In this document: positions 3,334 to 39,372 of the stretch, piece by piece | Position numbering within the stretch: position 1 is the stretch's first letter | Layout of the letters: every line of letters begins with the position of its first letter | Assembly: GCA_002438785.1 (NCBI GenBank) | Contig: DJQS01000011.1 | Coordinates: forward strand, 27,996-91,995 | Direction of reading: 5' to 3' | Source: Bacillales bacterium UBA6380 | GTDB taxonomy: Bacteria > Bacillota_I > Bacilli_A > RFN20 > CAG-826 | DNA: 64,000 nucleotides | Notes under the pieces: generated by a model | The model's input: the letters and a program-made list of their open reading frames with translations, nothing else | The model's database searches: none | What the model was told of the DNA's origin: nothing | Made by a program: the position numbers and the translations under genes

Positions 3334-3969
3334 CTAATTTAAATATGGGTTATTTTTTAATTCTTCACCTATTGTTGTTATAAAACCATGTCCAGGATAA
3401 ACAACTAATTTGGTATCAAATCCTTTAATAATTTCTAAACTATCTTTTAATAAGTTTCTATTAGAAGTTATTAAATCATCTCTTCCTATGCTACCTTTAA
3501 ACAAACTATCACCTGTAAATAAAGCATTTTCTTCTTGATTTAATAAGCAAACACTTCCATCAGTATGATAAGGTGTTTCAAAAACTTGAAACTTTAATCC
3601 ATCTCCAAAATTTAAAATATCTAAATTTTTAAAAGCTTTAACATTTAAATTAATTTTTACTGATTCATTTGTTAAATAAGATCCATTAAGTTTTGGATTT
3701 TGCAATAGTTCATAATCGAATTCATCGATATAAATGGGTGTTTTCGAAAAATAATCATGAAATTTCGACAACCCTCTTATATGATCGAAATGTCCATGCG
3801 TTAATAATAAAGCCTTTACTTCCGAATAATGAATTTTAATATAATTAATTAATTTTTGGCTTGTAGAACCATAATCAATGATGACGCAAGGTCCATTTTC
3901 TTTGCCAACAATATAAATATTTGCACAAAATTCATCTATACTATGATCGAAATTAAAAACTTTAATCAT
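3334..3969 (-). CDS. MBL-fold metallo-hydrolase (hydroxyacylglutathione hydrolase-like)
   Basis: THGHFDHIRG motif (HxHxDH), 211 aa. Confidence 0.7.
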   Translation of the reverse strand: MIKVFNFDHSIDEFCANIYIVGKENGPCVIIDYGSTSQKLINYIKIHYSEVKALLLTHGHFDHIRGLSKFHDYFSKTPIYIDEFDYELLQNPKLNGSYLTNESVKINLNVKAFKNLDILNFGDGLKFQVFETPYHTDGSVCLLNQEENALFTGDSLFKGSIGRDDLITSNRNLLKDSLEIIKGFDTKLVVYPGHGFITTIGEELKNNPYLN

Positions 3970-16944: not shown

Positions 16945-16976
16945 AATTTAATTATATCAAATAATTATGATATAAA

Positions 16977-18173
16977 CTAATTAAAGTGATAAAAATATAA
17001 ACATTTATAATATTTAATATTTTCAATGTCATTATCTATCTCTATAATTTTTTCAAATTGTTCTTGTAAAAAAACAAAAATGAAAAAATGAAAAAACATA
17101 TAATTAATCGAAATAAAACCAGTAAATCCTATGTAAATTAAACTTAGGCAAATTGTTAAAAAAATGAGAAAATATCTTTTAAAATTATTATATGATATAC
17201 ATTCATAAGACTGACTATTTAAAGCTTTTACTTCATTTTTAAATTCATCTCCATTGATATTTGAATTACTTAATAATTTATTTTCAATATTTTCGAGATT
17301 ATTCTTTTTTGTTTTATAAAACTTATTATCAATTTTTTTAAAAATATATTGAAAAGCAAAAGTTATTGCTAATATTAATAAACTCCAATAATTATTAATT
17401 CCTAGAATAATACAGCCAAAAACAAGCATAAAAAAACTTGAAATGAATTTTACTGGCGTTGATACTAATGAAAATTTGAATTTACTCATTGGTAAATAAT
17501 ATTTATTAAAGTCTTGTCTTTTAAAAAAGCATTCTTCAAGAAAAATTTGATTATCAAAATATTTTAAAGACAATATTATTATTTTTTGGTATAACAACTC
17601 AAATATTATATATGATAAAAATAAAAGAAATGAGATCATAAAACTAAATTTCTTATCAATAAAAAATGTAGCCGTGATTAAAGAAAGCAAACTTAGAAAT
17701 TGAAATAAAATAGTTATCCAAAAAAAATATTTTGGATATACACGGATTTTTTTTAATTTAAAATTACTCGTTAATATATTACTAACTTCTAATATTTCTC
17801 CATTCCAAATTTTAAATAAATTATTTTTAGAAATCCAATAGATGCCTGAAGAAGGATCATAAACTTTAACTCTACTTTTAGTTATTTTCTTAATTAATAC
17901 CATATGTAAGTTATCTTTTTTATTAATTACAATTAAAAAAGGGCATGAGACAGTTTTTTTAAAAAGAGCTTTTTTATCAATAATACGTGAAGCTTTTATA
18001 ATTACTCCTTCTTTTTTTGCTAAGTTAATTAGATCTCTTAATGAAGACGATGTTTCAACATTAACATGCGGATAATAAAGATAATCTGTATTTTTGTAAA
18101 CAATTGCTAAAAGCATTTTAATACAAGTGACGCCGCAGTCTTTTTCGCCGATTTGCTTTATATAATATTTCAT
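16977..18173 (-). CDS. Membrane protein with an N-terminal peptidase C39 (double-glycine leader peptidase) domain and no ABC ATPase domain
   Basis: The N-terminus IKQIGEKDCGVTCIKMLL matches the Q/Cys motif of C39 peptidases. HMVLIKKI...VKVYDPSSG matches the His/Asp motif. About six hydrophobic helices follow and there is no Walker A or B anywhere. Confidence 0.6.
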   Translation of the reverse strand: MKYYIKQIGEKDCGVTCIKMLLAIVYKNTDYLYYPHVNVETSSSLRDLINLAKKEGVIIKASRIIDKKALFKKTVSCPFLIVINKKDNLHMVLIKKITKSRVKVYDPSSGIYWISKNNLFKIWNGEILEVSNILTSNFKLKKIRVYPKYFFWITILFQFLSLLSLITATFFIDKKFSFMISFLLFLSYIIFELLYQKIIILSLKYFDNQIFLEECFFKRQDFNKYYLPMSKFKFSLVSTPVKFISSFFMLVFGCIILGINNYWSLLILAITFAFQYIFKKIDNKFYKTKKNNLENIENKLLSNSNINGDEFKNEVKALNSQSYECISYNNFKRYFLIFLTICLSLIYIGFTGFISINYMFFHFFIFVFLQEQFEKIIEIDNDIENIKYYKCLYFYHFN

Positions 18174-18221
18174 AATTTACCTCCTATATACAAGTCGTAG
18201 TAAATTATAAAAATTTGGGGG
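18174..18221 (-). promoter_or_regulatory. Conserved 15-nt core (TACGACTTGTATATA on the minus strand) in a 7-bp inverted repeat that encloses the RBS of the C39-domain gene, with an upstream C5 tract
   Basis: Plus strand reads cat-AATTTAC-ctccTATATACAAGTCGTA-GTAAATT-ataaaaattt-GGGGG. The core is identical to one upstream of comEA at 39336..39350. The C5 tract lies 17 nt from the core in both copies. Confidence 0.55.
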
Positions 18222-18223
18222 AT

Positions 18224-18250
18224 AAAAAAAGATCATCTTACAATGATCTT
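18224..18250 (-). terminator. Rho-independent terminator of rpsU
   Basis: AAGATCAT-cttaca-ATGATCTT stem-loop followed on the minus strand by a T7 run. Confidence 0.7.
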
Positions 18251-18260
18251 AATTTAAAAA

Positions 18261-18434
18261 TTATCTATATTTTTTTCTTGCGTTTTCAGATTTAATTTTT
18301 CTCTTTAAGTTTTTCTTTAAATAGAATTCTCTTTTACGACATTCTTGGATAATTCCGGCTTTATTAACTTGACGTTTAAATTTTCTTAAACCATCATCTA
18401 ATGTTTCGCCTTCTTTAATGATAACCTTAGGCAT
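18261..18434 (-). CDS. rpsU: 30S ribosomal protein S21 (not in the ORF track because it is under 60 aa)
   Basis: Manual translation [67 protein letters not shown] 6 nt upstream. Confidence 0.8.
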
Positions 18435-19526: not shown

Positions 19527-20819
19527 TTAATCTAAACATGAATTATCCTTTTTAAAAGTAATATTAAGTATTTTATCTTTTATATTAATGTCAGATTTGA
19601 TAAAACATTCTAAATAATTAGAACTGTGTCCCTTGTATCCACCTCTTCGGGAATCATAACTTTCAAATAAAAAATCAATATCTTTACCATAAAATTTATT
19701 TTCATAATTGTGTTCTAGTTCATCTGAAAGTTCAATTAAGCGATTAACACGATTCTTTTTTTCTATATCAGAAACTTTATTCGGAAATTTGCTTGCTGCA
19801 CTGCCATTTCTATCACTATAAGGAAATACATGTACTTTTGCAAAATTTATCTTCCTTATAAAATCCAATGTTGCTTCAAAATCCTCTTCAGTTTCACCAG
19901 GAAAGCCAACAATCACATCAGTTGTAATAGATATATCAGGTTTAATCTTTCTAATTTTATCTATCTTCAAAATATAATTTTCAAGATTGTATTTTCTATG
20001 CATCAATTTTAAAATTTTAGAACTTCCACTTTGAAGTGGAACATGTAAATGATTTGCAATATTAGGATAATCTTTTAATAAATTAATAAAATCTTCATCG
20101 ATTTGACTTTCTTCTATTGAAGATATTCGTAATCTATATAAATCAGGGTTATTAATAAGTATTTCTTTTAATAATTTAGAAAATGTCATGCCATTATTAA
20201 AGTCAAGACCATAACTGCCTTGATCAATACCAGTTAAAATGATTTCTTTATAGCCATTATTAATTAATTTCTTAACTTCATTTAATATAGATTCTATAGG
20301 TCTACTTCTTGATGGCCCTCTTACAAATGGAATCAAACAATATGTACAAAAATTATTACAACCATCTTGAATTTTCAAAAAAGCTCTTGTCTTATCAAAA
20401 TAATTATCTAAAGAAATATTTTCGTATGTTTTGTCTTTAAGAGCATTATTTTTTATTAATATAGGTTGTCTATTAGTTAAAAATTCATTTATATAATCAA
20501 ATATCTTACTTCTTTGATTAGTTCCTAAAACAATATTTGCTTTTAAATTATTAATTACGTAATCACCTTCATATTGTGAAAAACACCCCATAACACAAAT
20601 TATTGCATCACGATATTTTATTCGATATTGTCGAATCATTTTTTTAGACTTACTGCTACTTGTTTCTGTTACAGCACATGTATTAATAATTATTAAATCA
20701 GGTGTATCAGTAGAATCTTTTTTAATTTCTATAAAACCGTGCTTCATTAAATCATTAGCAACTGCTTCAACCTCGTAACTATTAACCTTACAACCTAAAA
20801 AATCTATTAAAAATTTCAT
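19527..20819 (-). CDS. mtaB: tRNA threonylcarbamoyladenosine methylthiotransferase (MiaB-like, YqeV/MtaB)
   Basis: MTTase N-domain Cys (CKVN...NTCAV...MGC), radical SAM CNNFCTYC, and a C-terminal TRAM domain. 430 aa. Syntenic with rsmE. Confidence 0.8.
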   Translation of the reverse strand: MKFLIDFLGCKVNSYEVEAVANDLMKHGFIEIKKDSTDTPDLIIINTCAVTETSSSKSKKMIRQYRIKYRDAIICVMGCFSQYEGDYVINNLKANIVLGTNQRSKIFDYINEFLTNRQPILIKNNALKDKTYENISLDNYFDKTRAFLKIQDGCNNFCTYCLIPFVRGPSRSRPIESILNEVKKLINNGYKEIILTGIDQGSYGLDFNNGMTFSKLLKEILINNPDLYRLRISSIEESQIDEDFINLLKDYPNIANHLHVPLQSGSSKILKLMHRKYNLENYILKIDKIRKIKPDISITTDVIVGFPGETEEDFEATLDFIRKINFAKVHVFPYSDRNGSAASKFPNKVSDIEKKNRVNRLIELSDELEHNYENKFYGKDIDFLFESYDSRRGGYKGHSSNYLECFIKSDINIKDKILNITFKKDNSCLD

Positions 20820-21208
20820 TTCGAAACCTCATTTTTTAATCTTTCATACAATTTATAACTAATAAATCCATTTTCATATAAACCATTAATAAAATTTATT
20901 TTAGTAGAATTATAGTATAAATCTAGTATATTTTTAGCTTTTTGTTCTATTCCTTTACTATCGAAAAACTTCAAGTTTCTATCATATAAATAAATAAGAT
21001 TATCTATAAATCCATCGTTATTTAAAATTAAAATAACATGAGTATGTGGATTTAAATAAGCACGAGATGTAGAATCAGAACTAACAAAAATTAAGTTCTT
21101 CAAACTATTGATTTTCTTCTTTTTTTTGTAAATATGATAATAATTATCATTAAGTATTTGATTATTATTCCTACTTTTATAAAGTGTTTTTAATATTGAA
21201 AATGCCAT
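20816..21208 (-). CDS. Hypothetical protein (130 aa, no recognisable family) inserted between rsmE and mtaB
   Basis: ORF with the same codon usage as its neighbours. Its 4-nt overlaps with both flanking genes suggest translational coupling. Confidence 0.45.
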   Translation of the reverse strand: MAFSILKTLYKSRNNNQILNDNYYHIYKKKKKINSLKNLIFVSSDSTSRAYLNPHTHVILILNNDGFIDNLIYLYDRNLKFFDSKGIEQKAKNILDLYYNSTKINFINGLYENGFISYKLYERLKNEVSK

Positions 21209-28703: not shown

Positions 28704-30107
28704 TTATTTTTTGCGAACTGGTGTATAAATATATTTATTTTTTAAAGGCTCTTTACTATAAAAGCCAAGATAAACTAAGCCATCCATACTAGTTCGTGCA
28801 GTCTCATAAGCGCAATTTAAACATTTTTTATACTGAGAAATTGTGTATTTCATTCCTAAAGTGCAATGTCTAGCATAAAAATAAGCTTGTCCATTTGATA
28901 AACTTGGGTAAAGTTCTTTTAAGTGATTTTCTAATTTTTTTGCCTCTTCTTCATTTAAGCCTTCTGGCAAAGAATTAATTGCAATATTCTTATTATAAAT
29001 TAAAGTTGGCTGACCATTAGTTGGCAAAGTAGCTTGTTCATTTTGCAAATTGTCTTCATTATTTTGAATAATTTGATTCTTTTGTTCGGTTTTAGATTTA
29101 GCGTCTTCATGACTAATATCCAAAGCATAATTTTCATTAAAAATATCACTTTTCTTACTCAATACTAATTTATCGACAAAGTCGTCTATTCTAGGTTCTA
29201 AAATTCTGAAAACATAGTCTAAAAAATAAGTTAAATCAAAACTTTTTTGTGACTCAGTTAAAGCCTTTTCTAAATTATCATTATCATTTAATAAGCATTC
29301 AAAGTTAAATAAAGAAGCTACACTTTCTAAATCATTATACGCTAATATTTGTTTAAATAATAGAATTGCAATTTCCTCATTATAAACTTCGAAAGGTTTT
29401 ATATAATAGCAAAAATAAAGTGTACAAACACTTTTCAAAATCGGAGAAATTTTAACATTATTTATAAAATTAAATAGATTATTCATTGAATTTTCAATTT
29501 TATTATGAGGGATACCAAAATATATTTTGTTTACTAATACTCTATTTAATCCATTATCTATTTCTTTAGTTCGATAGAATTCGGTTAATTCATTAGTACC
29601 TAGTAAAATAGAATATAATTTAGCTAAAAAATCTTCATTAATATTTTGATTATAGTTCTTTTCAATTTCATTTAAAGCATTTAAATAATGCATTATTAAT
29701 ATTTCATTTGCTGAAAGTATGCTAGAATCATTAGTAATAATATTCTTTAATTTAGAATCATCTATATTAATTTTATATTTTTTTTCAATTTCTCGCAAAA
29801 TGTCATAAAATCTATCATTTGAAAATTTCTTTTTCCCTTCATAAGAAAGTTTAGAAAAATTAACCATGCAGCGTAATAATTTTCTTTCAATATTATTTAC
29901 TTTTTCAACTATTGCTGGAGCTAAACATATGGAATAGCTTGTGCCATCAATATGTTCTAAAGCTAAGGAATATGAAAAATTTGCTCTATATTCTAAAATT
30001 TGTTTCCAAATATTATCAATAATAGGTAGCTTCATAGCCTTAGCTACATCATTTTTGGTTGCATAATTTACATTTGTAAAACGCATTCCTAGTTCATTAT
30101 TTGCCAT
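28704..30107 (-). CDS. Fic-domain-like protein with a degenerate active-site motif (putative pseudo-Fic)
   Basis: aa 237-245 read KPFEVYNEE, aligned to the Fic HPFx[D/E]GNGR motif and followed by IAILLFKQIL, equivalent to the RxxRLL helix. His, Gly-Asn-Gly and Arg are all replaced. Confidence 0.4.
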   Translation of the reverse strand: MANNELGMRFTNVNYATKNDVAKAMKLPIIDNIWKQILEYRANFSYSLALEHIDGTSYSICLAPAIVEKVNNIERKLLRCMVNFSKLSYEGKKKFSNDRFYDILREIEKKYKINIDDSKLKNIITNDSSILSANEILIMHYLNALNEIEKNYNQNINEDFLAKLYSILLGTNELTEFYRTKEIDNGLNRVLVNKIYFGIPHNKIENSMNNLFNFINNVKISPILKSVCTLYFCYYIKPFEVYNEEIAILLFKQILAYNDLESVASLFNFECLLNDNDNLEKALTESQKSFDLTYFLDYVFRILEPRIDDFVDKLVLSKKSDIFNENYALDISHEDAKSKTEQKNQIIQNNEDNLQNEQATLPTNGQPTLIYNKNIAINSLPEGLNEEEAKKLENHLKELYPSLSNGQAYFYARHCTLGMKYTISQYKKCLNCAYETARTSMDGLVYLGFYSKEPLKNKYIYTPVRKK

Positions 30108-35713: not shown

Positions 35714-35746
35714 AAAGCAACCGTTTGGTTGCTTTTTATTTTTTTA
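35714..35746. terminator. Bidirectional rho-independent terminator shared by rpsT (+) and holA (-)
   Basis: AAAGCAACC-gttt-GGTTGCTTT followed by T10. Confidence 0.75.
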
Positions 35747-36736
35747 AAAATTCAATATAAAAAGTTCAAAATTGTAAAATCTGTCGATTTCGTTATGTTT
35801 AATATCTTTATCAAGCTGGTATAATTTTTCTAAAATTTTTGGAATATTCTCTGTTTTCAATTTCTTGATATCTTGTAAAGCATAATAAATTTTTCCAGGT
35901 TTTACATTCAATTTAGTAGCAATTTCATTAGAGTTATACCCATTCTTATTTAAATAATTAACTGCATCTATAAAAATTAAAGAATTTGTCATCATAGTAA
36001 TTAAAACAATTGGCTCAATATTTTGGGTCAAACGTAAATCTCTAAATGTTGATAACGCCTTCATTTTATTATCTGCAATTAAATATTTTGTTAAAACATA
36101 TATATCATCTTCTTGAGGTCGTATAACAATCTGCTTAATATCATCAATAGTTATTATATTTTTACAATAAAGACATAACTTTGAACTCTCATTTAGAAAT
36201 GTTCTTAAATTACCTTGGCAACAACTAATAAGTTCAGAAATCGCTTCAGGTTCAATCTTTAAATTCTTTTTATCAAAATATGTTTTAATATATAAAGGCC
36301 AATCATTGTCTTTTATTGGTGAAAGGAACTTTTTATTTTCCTTAGTTATAGCGTTTACAATGACGTTATTTAAATCAATTTCATTAGATTTTACAATAAA
36401 AATTAAAATGACGTTTTCATCGCAATCTTCCTTTATATAATTTAATGCTTTATTATAATCGTTGTTTTTGGTAATTTTTGATACTTTAGACTTAGAAAAT
36501 TTACTTTCTTTTTGCAAATAATAGGCATCATCAATTACGATAATTTTTTTGTTACAAGCAAGATCAATTTGATAACATTCACTAATGGCATCATTTAATA
36601 ATGAATTTCTAGCATTAAAAGATATAATATTTTTTTCTTTACCACTGAAAAATTTATCAATAAAAGATTTCAAATAAATATTAATTCTCTCTTCATCATT
36701 TCCAAAAAATAAATATGTCATATAGATATTATACAA
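35744..36736 (-). CDS. holA: DNA polymerase III delta subunit
   Basis: 330 aa. Position immediately downstream of comEC as in Bacillus yqeN/holA. AAA-like N-domain. Confidence 0.7.
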   Translation of the reverse strand: MYNIYMTYLFFGNDEERINIYLKSFIDKFFSGKEKNIISFNARNSLLNDAISECYQIDLACNKKIIVIDDAYYLQKESKFSKSKVSKITKNNDYNKALNYIKEDCDENVILIFIVKSNEIDLNNVIVNAITKENKKFLSPIKDNDWPLYIKTYFDKKNLKIEPEAISELISCCQGNLRTFLNESSKLCLYCKNIITIDDIKQIVIRPQEDDIYVLTKYLIADNKMKALSTFRDLRLTQNIEPIVLITMMTNSLIFIDAVNYLNKNGYNSNEIATKLNVKPGKIYYALQDIKKLKTENIPKILEKLYQLDKDIKHNEIDRFYNFELFILNF

Positions 36737-36755
36737 TATATGAAATCAATATTCT

Positions 36756-38774
36756 TTAGAAAATACTAAAATAATAAGTGATTGTACCTTCAATATCAGT
36801 TCTTCTAATCTTAATGTCTAATGCATTTAATTTTTCTAATGTTTCATAATGAGGATGATTAAATTTATTATTTTTTCCGCATGAAATAATAGCTTCTTTT
36901 GGATTGCATTTTTCCAAAAAATTATATGATGATGAACTGTTCGATCCATGATGCCCAACTTTTAAATAATCGCATTTTATATTATTATCAATTATTTCGT
37001 TTTCGACCATTGAGCTTGCATCTCCCATTAATAAAAATTTATAATCTTTAATACAAAAACTTAAAACAAGTGATTTATCATTCTCAGAATAATTACTTTT
37101 AGAAAAAGGGTTGAGGTTTTCAAAAGTAAAATATCTCGTTTTTATTGGAAAAACATTGCTATTATCAATTATTTTTTTAATTTTAAAATTATGTGATAAT
37201 TGCTTTAATGAACCATAATGATCAAAATCATAATGTGTTATAAAAACATAATCTAAGTTATAAATACGTTTTTTTCTTAAAAAAGGAATTAATACATTAG
37301 ATGCTATATCATAATTTAAATTACCACCAGTATCAATTAAAATAGATTCTGTTTTATATCTAATTAATGTTGAATCACCTTGTCCCACATTTATAAAATT
37401 AATTTCGCAAGTAAATTGATTTTTAATTGGAAGGATATAAATAACAATACAAAGTAGATTGATTATTATTAACTTATTTTTATAATAAGTAAAATTAATT
37501 TCGAAAAAATATATTGTAACGATTAATAAAGCAAAAAATAAAACTAAATAAATTTGATTAAATGGCGGTATATACACATCAAATAAAGAAATATTTATAT
37601 TAGTGAAACAATTTATCGTAACTCTAAATATTTTTTCATAAAGACTCAAATGTAGACCATAAAAATATAGTATACTAATTAAAAATAAAAATTTAAAATA
37701 TGGTAATAATAAAATATTCAATAATATGTAAACTAAATTAAATCCGTTATTTGTTGAAATTATAAAAGGTAATAATATTACATAAAAAAGCGTTTTTGAA
37801 CGTATTCTCTTCTTGATATTTTTTTCATATCCAAGATAGTTTTTAAATAAATAAAATGAAATTACAATTAATAAAGGTATGTAAAATGATTGGCTATAAA
37901 TCAACGTTTTATTTATCAAAATAAATATCAAAAATAATAATAGTTTAATTGACAATTTATATTCATCATTTTTATTATCAATCAAAAATATTCCTAATAA
38001 AAACATTGAAACTGTCCTTATAAATAAAAACCGATGAAGATTCAAAATAAATATTGGTGTAAATACAATTAAAGAAATTACTCGACTTGTTCTATCACTA
38101 AATTTATACGCCAATAATTTAGATACGCCATATAATATAAAATTTATAAAAGTGCCGCATCCTGATACTAAATTTATTATCATAAGTTTTTTACTTATGT
38201 AATATAAATTTGAATTTATTTCTATTTCTCCAAATAGGAGGCTCGACATAAAAATCTTTGCATTATTATCTTGTATAGCGTTTAAAAAATTTCGCTTTAT
38301 CTTATTAAATCTAATTGGAGATTTAACTAAAATTTCGCTTTTTTTAATATTTAATTTTCTATATATATCGTTATTATTTAAAAATTCTTCAAAGTTAAAA
38401 GAACTTTCATATGAAGTAAAATCTAAATCTTGAAAAGTTCCGTCTATTTTTAAAATGTCGAATTGATCTATTTGGTTATTTTCCGAATAACAATAAAATT
38501 TTTCTTTTAAAGTTTTAAAAATAAAGTAATTATCTTTTCTTTTAAGAACTATTCCTATTAGATTGTTAGATGTTTTTTCCTTAAAGCAATTTATTGATCT
38601 TAATATACCAAATGCAAAAAATACTGTCGCAACTAAAATTAATTTTTTTGTTTTAAATCTTTTAATTAATAAATAAATTACAATAAGTAAAAATGTTATA
38701 GTTAGAATTAAATACTTTATTTTAATTAATAATAATCCTGCTATGTATGATAATAATAGCAATAAAACAAACAT
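36756..38774 (-). CDS. comEC: DNA internalisation competence protein ComEC/Rec2
   Basis: About ten TM helices, a competence domain, and a C-terminal metallo-beta-lactamase domain (HYDFDHYG, VGHHGS). 672 aa. Confidence 0.85.
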   Translation of the reverse strand: MFVLLLLLSYIAGLLLIKIKYLILTITFLLIVIYLLIKRFKTKKLILVATVFFAFGILRSINCFKEKTSNNLIGIVLKRKDNYFIFKTLKEKFYCYSENNQIDQFDILKIDGTFQDLDFTSYESSFNFEEFLNNNDIYRKLNIKKSEILVKSPIRFNKIKRNFLNAIQDNNAKIFMSSLLFGEIEINSNLYYISKKLMIINLVSGCGTFINFILYGVSKLLAYKFSDRTSRVISLIVFTPIFILNLHRFLFIRTVSMFLLGIFLIDNKNDEYKLSIKLLLFLIFILINKTLIYSQSFYIPLLIVISFYLFKNYLGYEKNIKKRIRSKTLFYVILLPFIISTNNGFNLVYILLNILLLPYFKFLFLISILYFYGLHLSLYEKIFRVTINCFTNINISLFDVYIPPFNQIYLVLFFALLIVTIYFFEINFTYYKNKLIIINLLCIVIYILPIKNQFTCEINFINVGQGDSTLIRYKTESILIDTGGNLNYDIASNVLIPFLRKKRIYNLDYVFITHYDFDHYGSLKQLSHNFKIKKIIDNSNVFPIKTRYFTFENLNPFSKSNYSENDKSLVLSFCIKDYKFLLMGDASSMVENEIIDNNIKCDYLKVGHHGSNSSSSYNFLEKCNPKEAIISCGKNNKFNHPHYETLEKLNALDIKIRRTDIEGTITYYFSIF

Positions 38775-38776
38775 TT

Positions 38777-39322
38777 TTAATCAGTTAAAATAATATAATT
38801 TTTTAGTTTATTATAAGTTGCATTACCAATTCCACTTACATTCATTATGTCTTCAATAGTTTGAAATAATCCATTTTCATCACGATATTTTATAATTGAT
38901 TCGCAAATAGTTTTCCCTATACCATCTACATATGTCAAATCTTCCGGATCATTGAATGAATTAATATTCACTTTTTGAATTTCATCCTCGGAACAAATAT
39001 CTGTAGGATCATATCTAGGTGGGATGTAATATGATACATTTTTACTAATCTTAGCATTAGGCAAATAAGCTCTTGTATCAGCCTTATCAGTTATTCCACC
39101 TGCCTTATCAATTAAATCTTGCATTACTGAGCCTTCATCTAAAAGATAATTCCCTGGACTAACAATATAGCCTGAGATTCCAATGGAATTTCTTGTTACT
39201 TCTGTAATGTCATCATTATCGCTATTATTTCTAAAACTATTGAAATCAATGAATTGCATACAAACTAGAGCAATAATTGTAGAAACAGCAACACCAATTA
39301 AAATTTTTAATGTCAATGTCAT
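38777..39322 (-). CDS. comEA: Competence protein ComEA (DNA receptor)
   Basis: N-terminal TM helix, SLBB-like domain, and C-terminal tandem helix-hairpin-helix (GIGKTICESII...VSGIGNATYNKL). Immediately upstream of comEC. Confidence 0.8.
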   Translation of the reverse strand: MTLTLKILIGVAVSTIIALVCMQFIDFNSFRNNSDNDDITEVTRNSIGISGYIVSPGNYLLDEGSVMQDLIDKAGGITDKADTRAYLPNAKISKNVSYYIPPRYDPTDICSEDEIQKVNINSFNDPEDLTYVDGIGKTICESIIKYRDENGLFQTIEDIMNVSGIGNATYNKLKNYIILTD

Positions 39323-39328
39323 AAAAAA

Positions 39329-39372
39329 ACCTCCTTATATACAAGTCGTATATTAAAAGGAGGTAATGGGGG
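39329..39372 (-). promoter_or_regulatory. Conserved 15-nt core (TACGACTTGTATATA on the minus strand) in a Shine-Dalgarno-sequestering hairpin upstream of comEA, with an upstream C5 tract
   Basis: mRNA strand reads CCCCC-auu-ACCUCCUU-uuaaUAUACGACUUGUAUAUA-AGGAGGU-U7-AUG. The 8-bp arms ACCTCCTT/AAGGAGGT are perfect complements. An inner ATATAC/GTATAT inverted repeat is also present. Confidence 0.55.

What the first reader, a model, noticed from the sequence alone, without database searches (positions are those of the whole stretch)
18174..18221. Identical 15-nt core in covarying hairpins that wrap the ribosome-binding sites of comEA and a C39-peptidase gene
The 15-mer TACGACTTGTATATA (coding strand) occurs exactly twice in the window. 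Both copies sit directly in front of the GGAGG Shine-Dalgarno of a minus-strand gene: the C39 peptidase-domain membrane protein (plus 18185..18199) and comEA (plus 39336..39350). In each case the core lies inside an inverted repeat whose arms differ in sequence but keep perfect complementarity (AATTTAC/GTAAATT versus ACCTCCTT/AAGGAGGT). A conserved loop with a compensating stem is the signature of a structured RNA element rather than a protein operator. In comEA the 3' arm of the stem is the SD itself, so the RBS is sequestered. Both copies also have a CCCCC tract exactly 17 nt upstream of the core, which is rare in a ~26% GC genome. Fifteen identical nucleotides at the same position relative to two start codons is not expected by chance in 64 kb. 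This suggests one undescribed cis-regulatory element co-controlling DNA uptake and a peptide-processing protease. Candidates are an RNA thermometer or RBS-occluding switch, a site for an RNA-binding regulator, or an alternative-sigma (ComX-like TACGAATA-type) promoter with a short leader.
Basis: seen in the sequence. Interest (0 to 1): 0.72.

Follow-up and report, generated by a model that had tools for sequence, protein, structure and literature searches.

The report
Alternative-sigma promoter inside RBS-masking hairpins
The repeated 15-mer is most likely the core of a special promoter, read by a still unidentified alternative sigma factor, that switches on DNA-uptake genes in an uncultured gut bacterium; it sits inside hairpins that mask the ribosome-binding site on transcripts arriving from upstream.

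Summary
TACGACTTGTATATA occurs exactly twice. Each copy lies 17 nt downstream of CCCCC and directly before the Shine-Dalgarno of comEA or of a C39-peptidase membrane protein. A repeated 15-mer alone is not unusual in this 26% GC window, but the composite is (expected 2.6e-8).

The element is a bipartite DNA motif, (A)C4-7(A), 18-20 nt, C-N-N-CTTGTAT. It is conserved before the orthologous comEA and C39 genes of related RF39/Onthovivens-like genomes. It also precedes a surface endonuclease I operon and an ABC-transporter operon.

The spacer sequence is free but its length is fixed. Strong terminators end 2-6 nt before the C-run. No sigma-70-type promoter and no Rfam family matches.

The geometry matches the Bacillales sigma-I consensus (ACCCCC, 19 nt, CGAA), with a predicted start at the first base of the SD.

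The hairpins are real and recurrent (p about 9e-6 against other genes). Their 5' arm lies in the promoter spacer, so they should form only on read-through transcripts, where they mask the SD or terminate.

Best reading: an alternative-sigma promoter nested in insulating hairpins, not an RNA switch. The sigma gene was not found.

The parts
18217..18221 (-). Site 1, predicted -35 element: C-run (tCCCCCa)
   Evidence: One of only 6 CCCCC in the window. It lies 19 nt before CGAC, the spacing of the Bacillales sigma-I consensus. A C-run is conserved at 18-20 nt in 11 of 13 sites.
18185..18199 (-). Site 1, exact 15-mer TACGACTTGTATATA. The conserved core CGACTTGTAT is 18188-18197. Predicted -10 and discriminator region.
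   Evidence: The core is conserved before C39 orthologues L008 and L009 and degenerate in L007. C..CTTGT is invariant in 13 sites.
18200..18216 (-). Site 1 promoter spacer, with the weak 5' arm AATTTAC (18200-18206)
   Evidence: The sequence is not conserved between sites but the length is fixed. The hairpin is not above chance.
18174..18184 (-). Site 1 SD GGAGG (18180-18184) and short leader. Predicted transcription start at 18184/18183. ATG at 18171-18173.
   Evidence: The start position is inferred from sigma-I promoters, which start 10-11 nt after CGWA.
18224..18250 (-). Intrinsic terminator of rpsU (18261-18434), ending 2 nt before the C-run
   Evidence: Fold -11.3 kcal/mol, z -4.3, followed by U7. 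rpsU ORF.
16977..18173 (-). Gene driven by site 1: C39 peptidase domain fused to a membrane domain, without an ABC ATPase domain
   Evidence: Pfam PF03412, 1.2e-19. NCBIfam match to peptidase-domain ABC transporters over residues 6-201 only. Only 19 homologue clusters, all in this lineage. The next gene, ybeY, has its own TGaTATAAT 6 nt before its ATG.
39368..39372 (-). Site 2, predicted -35 element: C-run (aCCCCCa)
39336..39350 (-). Site 2, exact 15-mer. The core CGACTTGTAT is 39339-39348.
   Evidence: Conserved before comEA in L136, L011 and L012.
39323..39364 (-). Site 2 hairpin: anti-SD ACCTCCTT (39357-39364), inner stem ATATAC/GTATAT, SD arm AAGGAGGT (39329-39336), U7 (39323-39329). Acts as the greA terminator and SD mask on read-through RNA. 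Predicted start of the nested promoter at 39335/39334.
   Evidence: Fold -14.9 kcal/mol, z -5.4. The most stable leader among the SD-bearing genes of the window. Equivalent anti-SD pairing in L012, L013 and L136.
35744..39322 (-). Operon driven by site 2: comEA (38777-39322), comEC (36756-38774), holA (35744-36736)
   Evidence: Pfam. Same gene order in L001-L006, L011 and L013.

Best explanation
**What it is.** The element is a promoter for an alternative sigma factor. It is bipartite. The -35 part is (A)CCCCC(A). After 18-20 nt, usually 19, comes the second part, C-G-A-C-TTGTAT. Transcription is predicted to start 10-11 nt after CGAC, at or one base before the Shine-Dalgarno, giving a leader of about 11-18 nt.

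**What it controls.** In an uncultured RF39/Onthovivens-like member of the Bacilli it drives comEA-comEC-holA and a C39-peptidase membrane protein. On a contig from the same sample, and in relatives, it also precedes two other operons. One encodes two thioredoxin-like CxxC lipoproteins and a membrane-anchored endonuclease I. The other is an ABC/FtsX transporter. The known members therefore look like a DNA capture and uptake regulon.

**What the hairpins do.** The promoter usually sits inside a hairpin. The 5' arm, an anti-SD, lies in the untranscribed promoter spacer. The 3' arm is the SD. RNA that reads in from the upstream gene folds the hairpin and is terminated or left untranslatable. RNA that starts at the nested promoter lacks the 5' arm and has a free SD.

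**Shown and inferred.** Shown: the motif, its conservation, its placement, the hairpins and the terminators. Inferred: that a sigma factor rather than another DNA-binding protein reads it, the start site, and the insulating role of the hairpins.
For: 1. **Composite motif.** It is exact at both window sites and far beyond chance.
2. **Found by orthology, not by pattern.**
   - comEA: L136 has C7-N18-CGACTTGTAT, L011 has C6-N18-CCACTTGTAT, L012 has C4-N19-CGTCTTGTAT.
   - C39: L008 and L009 keep CGACTTGTAT. L007 has C4-N20-CTACTTGTTAT.
   - Endonuclease operon: L141 has C6-N18-CTACTTGTAT.
3. **Found by pattern scans.** L026 (ABC/FtsX operon) and L036 (two CxxC lipoproteins plus Endonuclease_1) lie on ERZ808262 NODE-170. 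Its coverage is 6.76, against 6.90 for the window organism's contig in that sample. L015/L114 and L016/L118 are further hits in related genomes.
4. **Specificity.** A relaxed bipartite pattern hits only these sites in the window and ten related loci, always intergenic, on the coding strand and just before a start codon.
5. **Spacer.** Its length is fixed and its sequence is free. C..CTTGT is invariant. A precedes the C-run in 9 of 11 sites and follows it in 11 of 11 (my reading of the sequences listed).
6. **Match to sigma-I.** The Bacillales consensus is ACCCCC--AA 15(N) CGAA, which is 19 nt between the C-run and CGAA. Sigma-I start sites lie 10-11 nt after the tetrad, and sigI operons have 13-20 nt leaders. 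Here that position falls at or 1 nt before the SD in most sites.
7. **No room for another promoter.** Terminators end 2-6 nt before the C-run at window site 1, L036 and L136. No sigma-70-type promoter is found at either site. The housekeeping promoter type is visible elsewhere, for example TGaTATAAT before ybeY.
8. **Hairpins.** They are enriched, but the position of the arm is variable and the strong hairpin is missing at the ABC sites.
Against: - No alternative sigma gene was found. There is none in the 64-kb window or in about 17 kb beyond its ends. The rest of the genome could not be read.
- The -10 tetrad is CGAC with an invariant C at the fourth base, not CGWA. The T expected 5 nt after the tetrad is an A here.
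- Ten invariant or near-invariant bases is long for a -10 region.
- In the one genome where both loci were read (GCA_034087725.1), comEA has the C-run but C39 does not. It has TTGTCAC-N16-CGAC instead.
- Four of the 13 sites were found with a pattern that forces the motif.
- The assignment of NODE-170 to the window's organism rests only on sample, coverage and G+C.
- No transcription data exist.
Confidence: 0.6

Rival explanations
1. RNA element. The hairpin with the conserved loop ACGACUUGUAU is a cis-regulatory leader on transcripts made from an upstream promoter. It keeps the SD masked until a protein, a small RNA or a loop-specific nuclease opens or cuts it.
For: - SD masking is strongly enriched at motif sites.
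- The stems differ in sequence but stay complementary to each site's own SD region: ACCTCCTT/AAGGAGGT, CTTTCAT/ATGAAAG, AAATCCCT/AGGGATTT, ACTTCCTAT/ATAGGAGGT.
- The masking persists in distant orthologues whose motif has decayed, L013 and L010.
Against: - The C-run at a fixed distance outside the hairpin is unexplained. CCCCC is a poor anti-SD, and it is kept at sites without a GGAGG SD.
- The position of the core within the loop and the loop size vary.
- The ABC sites have the motif but no strong hairpin.
- Terminators abut the C-run, so only read-through RNA would carry the hairpin.
- The site 1 hairpin is not above chance.
- No Rfam match, even at E = 1.
Confidence: 0.13
2. Operator. The two conserved blocks are bound by a transcription factor, either a repressor or an activator, that controls a housekeeping sigma-A promoter using the TATATA/TATAAT/TATAGT part of the core as its -10 box.
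For: - The last six bases of the core region resemble a -10 box: TATAAT in L026 and L036, TATAGT in L011 and L136.
- Ten conserved bases are more typical of an operator than of a -10 element.
- C39 sites L008 and L009 keep the core without the C-run.
Against: - With that -10 box, transcription would start inside or after the conserved GGAGG. The mRNA would have neither an SD nor a 5'-terminal AUG (my reading).
- There is no -35 hexamer at 16-18 nt.
- TG abuts TAT with no spacing base, unlike the organism's own TGnTATAAT.
- The two blocks are neither a dyad nor a direct repeat.
Confidence: 0.17
3. Promoter for a phage-type single-subunit RNA polymerase. The core resembles the T7 promoter TAATACGACTCACTATAGGGAGA (TACGACT, then TATAGG at the start site).
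For: Own knowledge of the T7 consensus. It shares the 7-mer TACGACT and TATA-GG, and the predicted start at the first G is the same.
Against: - The two halves are out of register by one base.
- The conserved C-run lies outside any T7-type promoter.
- Relatives vary in exactly the TATAG part.
- No such polymerase was seen in any locus read.
- The viral-contig scan gave only chance hits.
Confidence: 0.02
4. Chance repeat, or a remnant of a small duplication, with no function.
For: Repeated 15-mers are common in this window.
Against: - The composite motif is expected 2.6e-8 times.
- It is conserved at orthologous positions while the flanks have diverged.
- The sequences around the two copies share nothing else.
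Confidence: 0.02

Closest known systems
Sigma-I (SigI/RsgI) dependent promoters of Bacillales and cellulolytic Clostridia (PMC4711584, PMC10575876)
   Same: - A -35 element of ACCCCC followed by A-rich sequence.
- 19 nt from the C-run to a CGA-containing -10 tetrad.
- Information-rich flanks.
- Very short leaders (13-20 nt) at several sigI operons.
- Start site 10-11 nt after the tetrad.
   Different: - The tetrad is CGAC, not CGWA.
- It is followed by an invariant TTGTAT instead of ----T.
- No sigI or rsgI gene has been seen.
[quoted passage not shown]
ComX/SigX cin-box (TACGAATA) of streptococcal late competence genes (for example PMC6224593, PMC4497675)
   Same: An alternative-sigma promoter before comEA-type late competence genes. 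The first five bases, TACGA, are shared, and 6 of 8 positions match in all.
   Different: - Own knowledge: the cin-box has no C-run -35 element.
- The octamer differs at positions 6 and 8.
- The organism is not one of the Lactobacillales.
- No comX gene has been seen.
Fold-back inhibition in IS10/Tn10, where read-through transcripts from outside sequester the transposase ribosome-binding site (own knowledge: Davis, Simons and Kleckner 1985)
   Same: The gene's own promoter starts downstream of a sequence complementary to the ribosome-binding site. Only outside transcripts fold and are untranslatable.
   Different: Here the setting is chromosomal operons of a regulon. The same hairpin often doubles as the terminator of the upstream gene, and the -10 region sits in the loop.
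ComK regulon of Bacillus subtilis (own knowledge: comE, comG, comF, nucA, bdbDC, recA, ssbB)
   Same: A similar functional set: DNA receptor and channel, a membrane nuclease, and thiol-disulfide oxidoreductases.
   Different: ComK is an activator that binds AT-boxes at sigma-A promoters, not a sigma factor. The motif is unrelated.

Membership tests
Sigma-I dependent promoter | -35 element ACCCCC | tested here: met
   A C4-7 run in 11 of 13 sites, preceded by A in 9 of 11 and followed by A in 11 of 11 (compared with the consensus).
Sigma-I dependent promoter | About 19 nt between the C-run and the -10 tetrad (ACCCCC--AA 15N CGAA) | tested here: met
   The gap is 19 nt in 7 sites, 18 in 3 and 20 in 1.
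Sigma-I dependent promoter | -10 tetrad CGWA | tested here: not met
   CGAC in 10 of 13 sites, with CTAC, CCAC and CGTC in the others. The fourth base is C in 13 of 13.
Sigma-I dependent promoter | Conserved T five bases after the tetrad (CGAA----T) | tested here: not met
   That position is A in 12 of 13 sites. T occupies the neighbouring positions.
Sigma-I dependent promoter | A sigI gene, usually with rsgI, in the genome, itself preceded by the motif | not testable with these tools
   No sigma gene other than rpoD in the window or in L139/L140. The window's own sites were not among the genome-contig hits.
ComX/SigX cin-box | Octamer TACGAATA about 10 nt before the start site | tested here: not met
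   TACGACTT matches 6 of 8 positions, and both differing positions are invariant here.
ComX/SigX cin-box | Found before the whole late competence set (comG, comF, dprA, ssbB, recA, coiA) | tested here: inconclusive
   Present before comEA-comEC. The other genes lie outside all sequence that could be read.
RBS-sequestering RNA element (thermometer or switch) | SD paired in a hairpin | tested here: met
   Nine of 14 sites pair more strongly than any of 25 control genes.
RBS-sequestering RNA element (thermometer or switch) | The hairpin lies within the gene's own mature leader | not testable with these tools
   This needs start-site mapping. The indirect evidence is against it, because terminators abut the C-run.
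RBS-sequestering RNA element (thermometer or switch) | A constant structure with the conserved sequence presented in the same way | tested here: not met
   The 5' arm ranges from overlapping the core to about 8 nt away. Two sites lack a strong hairpin. No Rfam match.
Intrinsic terminator | Stable hairpin directly followed by a U-run after a stop codon | tested here: met
   At site 2 the hairpin (-14.9 kcal/mol) plus U7 lies 24 nt after the greA stop. The simple scan misses it because the loop is longer than 8 nt. At site 1 the hairpin has no U-run. The separate rpsU terminator does.
T7-type promoter | Contiguous match to the 23-nt consensus, and a single-subunit polymerase gene | tested here: not met
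   The two matching blocks are out of register by 1 nt, and no such polymerase gene was seen in any locus read.

The most novel reading that the evidence does not exclude
The hairpins with the invariant ACGACUUGUAU loop are a new class of RNA switch. On read-through or longer transcripts, an unknown factor that recognises the loop (a protein, a small RNA or a nuclease) unmasks the ribosome-binding sites of the DNA-uptake genes. This could act together with the nested promoter to give two layers of control from one 50-nt element.
Probability: 0.13. Interest if true: 0.75.

Novelty: new variant of a known kind. Interest (0 to 1): 0.5.

Why it matters
RF39/Onthovivens-like bacteria are common in guts, uncultured and genome-reduced. 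Nothing is known about how they control DNA uptake.

A sharply defined, highly specific promoter motif gives a direct way to read out their DNA-uptake regulon from metagenomes. It also gives a way to find the controlling sigma factor, which should carry the same motif before its own gene.

Placing a promoter inside a terminator or anti-SD hairpin is a compact way to make a gene blind to upstream transcription. It could serve as a design for tight synthetic insulators.

Tried and rejected
- **Sigma-70 promoter scan.** Nothing at either site.
- **Rfam.** No hit on the whole window at gathering score, and none on either site at E up to 1.
- **Genome-collection scan** with CCCCCN{17}TACGACTTGTAT. 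Five hits, two of them relevant (L015, L016). The window's own two sites were not among the hits, so its regulon could not be listed.
- **Metagenome scan.** Most of the 116 stretches are chance hits in unrelated G+C-richer DNA, and four were relevant.
- **Viral-contig scan.** Chance hits only.
- **Walking about 17 kb beyond the window ends.** No sigma factor and no further site.
- **Candidate regulators.** The 174-aa ORF after the L015 site has no family match and does not look like a sigma factor.
- **Literature search for the core sequence.** Only unrelated primer matches. A search for a paper on the B. subtilis sigma-I promoter logo found nothing in the library.
- **LexA/Cheo box and ComK box.** Rejected by eye, because the core has no dyad and no AAAA-N5-TTTT.
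- **C-run as an anti-SD.** Rejected. It is mismatched to GGAGG and is kept at sites with weak SDs.
- **T7-type promoter.** Rejected on register and on the unexplained C-run.

Full report
**1. The observation**

On the minus strand the window reads as follows:
- Site 1: tatCCCCCaaatttttataatttacTACGACTTGTATATAGGAGGtaaattATG
- Site 2: ctaCCCCCattacctccttttaataTACGACTTGTATATAAGGAGGtttttttATG

The 15-mer is exact at 18185-18199 and 39336-39350 and occurs nowhere else. CCCCC occurs six times on the two strands, and two of those lie exactly 17 nt before the 15-mer.

The downstream genes are a 398-aa protein with an N-terminal Peptidase_C39 domain and a membrane domain, and ComEA followed by ComEC and HolA.

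A repeated 15-mer is not rare in this 26% G+C window. There are 168 observed against about 110 simulated. The composite motif is expected 2.6e-8 times.

**2. Organism and setting**

The ComEA protein occurs on metagenome contigs of up to 214 kb. The closest named relatives are Candidatus Onthovivens MAGs. From my own knowledge of the taxonomy, these belong to the RF39 group of Bacilli.

The gene order is:
- deoC, rpsU, terminator, site 1, C39, ybeY, cdd, era, recO, glyS, dnaG, rpoD
- alaS, ruvX, DUF1292, greA, site 2, comEA, comEC, holA

This order is kept in relatives.

**3. Conservation at orthologous genes**

| Gene | Locus | Upstream sequence |
|---|---|---|
| comEA | L136 (GCA_034087725.1) | CCCCCCC-N18-CGACTTGTATAGTAAAAGGAGG |
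| comEA | L011 | CCCCCC-N18-CCACTTGTATAGTGAAGGAGG |
| comEA | L012 | CCCC-N19-CGTCTTGTATGTGAAGGAGG |
| comEA | L013 (46% identical ComEA) | motif decayed |
| C39 | L008 | CGCGACTTGTATATAGGAGG, no C-run |
| C39 | L009 | TACGACTTGTATTGTAAGGAGG, no C-run |
| C39 | L007 | CCCC-N20-CTACTTGTTATTAAGGAGG |
| C39 | L010 | motif lost |

**4. More members of the regulon**

Pattern scans found further sites in low-G+C Bacilli/Mollicutes-type DNA.
- Two lie on ERZ808262 NODE-170 (coverage 6.76). The window organism's contig in that sample has coverage 6.90.
- L026 precedes an ABC ATPase/FtsX operon placed after the formate-tetrahydrofolate ligase gene. The same arrangement occurs in L016 and L118.
- L036 precedes two CxxC lipoproteins that look thioredoxin-like and a 593-aa Endonuclease_1 protein with a C-terminal membrane anchor.
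- L141, found by homology rather than by pattern, encodes a 48%-identical nuclease in the same operon. Its upstream sequence is CCCCCC-N18-CTACTTGTATATAAAGGAGG.
- L015 and L114 carry the motif and an SD-like AAGGAGG, but the next ORF starts 130 nt further on.

A relaxed bipartite pattern finds only these sites in the window and ten related loci.

The known members fit DNA capture and uptake: a DNA receptor and channel, a surface nuclease with disulfide-forming partners, a C39 membrane protein and a transporter.

**5. Anatomy across 13 sites**

- The bases C..CTTGT are invariant, and the A and T that follow are each kept in 12 of 13.
- The C-run lies 18-20 nt upstream in all 11 sites that have one.
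- A flanks the C-run on both sides.
- The spacer sequence is unconserved.
- The start codon lies 18-26 nt after the tetrad.

This is the anatomy of a two-block promoter. It is not a dyad operator and not a folded RNA.

**6. Which promoter type**

The Bacillales sigma-I consensus is ACCCCC--AA 15(N) CGAA----T. That is 19 nt between the C-run and the tetrad. Mapped sigma-I starts lie 10-11 nt after the tetrad, and several sigI operons have 13-20 nt leaders (structural basis).

Applied here, the start falls on the first G of GGAGG at site 1 (18184) and on the A or G just before the SD at site 2 (39335/39334). It falls at or next to the SD at most other sites. With that start, the tetrad sits at about -13 to -10 and the C-run at about -37 to -33.

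The match is partial. The tetrad is CGAC, not CGWA, and the downstream T is displaced. I therefore call it sigma-I-like and do not file it as a member of that family. The streptococcal cin-box TACGAATA shares 6 of 8 bases but has no C-run.

**7. Why a promoter has to be there**

- The rpsU terminator (18224-18250, -11.3 kcal/mol, z -4.3, U7) ends 2 nt before the C-run of site 1.
- L036 and L136 have equivalent terminators just before their C-runs.
- No sigma-70-type promoter is detected at either window site.
- The housekeeping promoter type is easy to see elsewhere, for example TGaTATAAT 6 nt before the ybeY ATG.

**8. The hairpins**

The comEA hairpin with its U7 tail is very stable (z -5.4). 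It gives the most stable leader among the SD-bearing genes of the window. It begins 24 nt after the greA stop, so it should act as the greA terminator.

Across 14 sites, the pairing between the last 18 nt before the ATG and the 40 nt upstream has a median of -12.0 kcal/mol. The median for 25 SD-bearing control genes is -4.3, and the best control is -8.0 (p 9e-6). Orthologous sites are not fully independent, although their arm sequences differ.

The arms differ from site to site but always complement the local SD region.

The 5' arm always lies in the promoter spacer. Its distance to the core varies. The two ABC sites lack a strong hairpin (-6.0 and -6.6 kcal/mol). The hairpin of window site 1 is weak (-6.2).

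The simplest account is this. RNA entering from upstream folds, and is then terminated or left untranslatable. RNA started at the nested promoter lacks the 5' arm and is translated. This is the logic of fold-back inhibition in IS10 (own knowledge).

**9. What remains open**

No alternative sigma gene was found. The window's own sites were not among the genome-collection hits. No transcription data exist. An operator reading and an RNA-switch reading are not excluded.

**10. Verdict**

It is best explained as a lineage-specific alternative-sigma promoter for DNA-uptake genes, embedded in SD-masking or terminator hairpins. It is a new variant of known kinds, of moderate interest, and directly testable.

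Noticed in passing
window 16945-16960 (minus strand), and the starts of the genes at 137, 4228, 30198, 46615 and 53479: Several genes have no SD but carry a TATAAT-type box a few bases before the ATG. ybeY has TGaTATAAT 6 nt before its ATG. This suggests frequent leaderless mRNAs in this organism, and it means ybeY-cdd-era-recO probably have their own housekeeping promoter downstream of the C39 gene.
   Followed up: partly
L015 3325-3490 (also L114): A full motif followed by AAGGAGG has no start codon after it. The predicted 5' end AAGGAGG can pair with CTCTCCTT about 27 nt downstream, and a 174-aa ORF with no family match starts 130 nt later. This may be a small RNA, a long leader or a decayed gene.
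   Followed up: partly
window 16977-18173: The C39 protein keeps what look like the catalytic Cys (DCG) and His motifs and has a multi-pass membrane domain, but no ABC ATPase domain. It has only 19 homologue clusters, all about 398 aa, and all four orthologue loci read show the same position after rpsU. It looks like a lineage-specific relative of peptidase-containing ABC exporters that has lost its ATPase.
   Followed up: partly
window 28704-30107 and 20816-21208: Two conserved ORFs have no Pfam or NCBIfam match. One is 467 aa and lies between lepA and the radical-SAM gene. The other is 130 aa and lies between rsmE and mtaB. ORFs at the same positions occur in related loci.
   Followed up: no
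window 18185-18199 and 39336-39350: The core resembles the T7 promoter (TACGACT, then TATAGG at the predicted start), with a register shift of 1 nt. I judged this a coincidence.
   Followed up: partly
L009 9940-10000 against L136 1440-1500 (same assembly, GCA_034087725.1): Within one genome the comEA site has a C7 run, but the C39 site has TTGTCAC-N16-CGAC instead. The upstream element of the C39 promoter has been exchanged in that lineage while the core is kept.
   Followed up: no
window 3334-3969: The precomputed Pfam list for this 211-aa metallo-beta-lactamase-fold protein includes Anti-Pycsar_Apyc1 (PF23023). It lies among housekeeping genes next to efp and rpmG.
   Followed up: no
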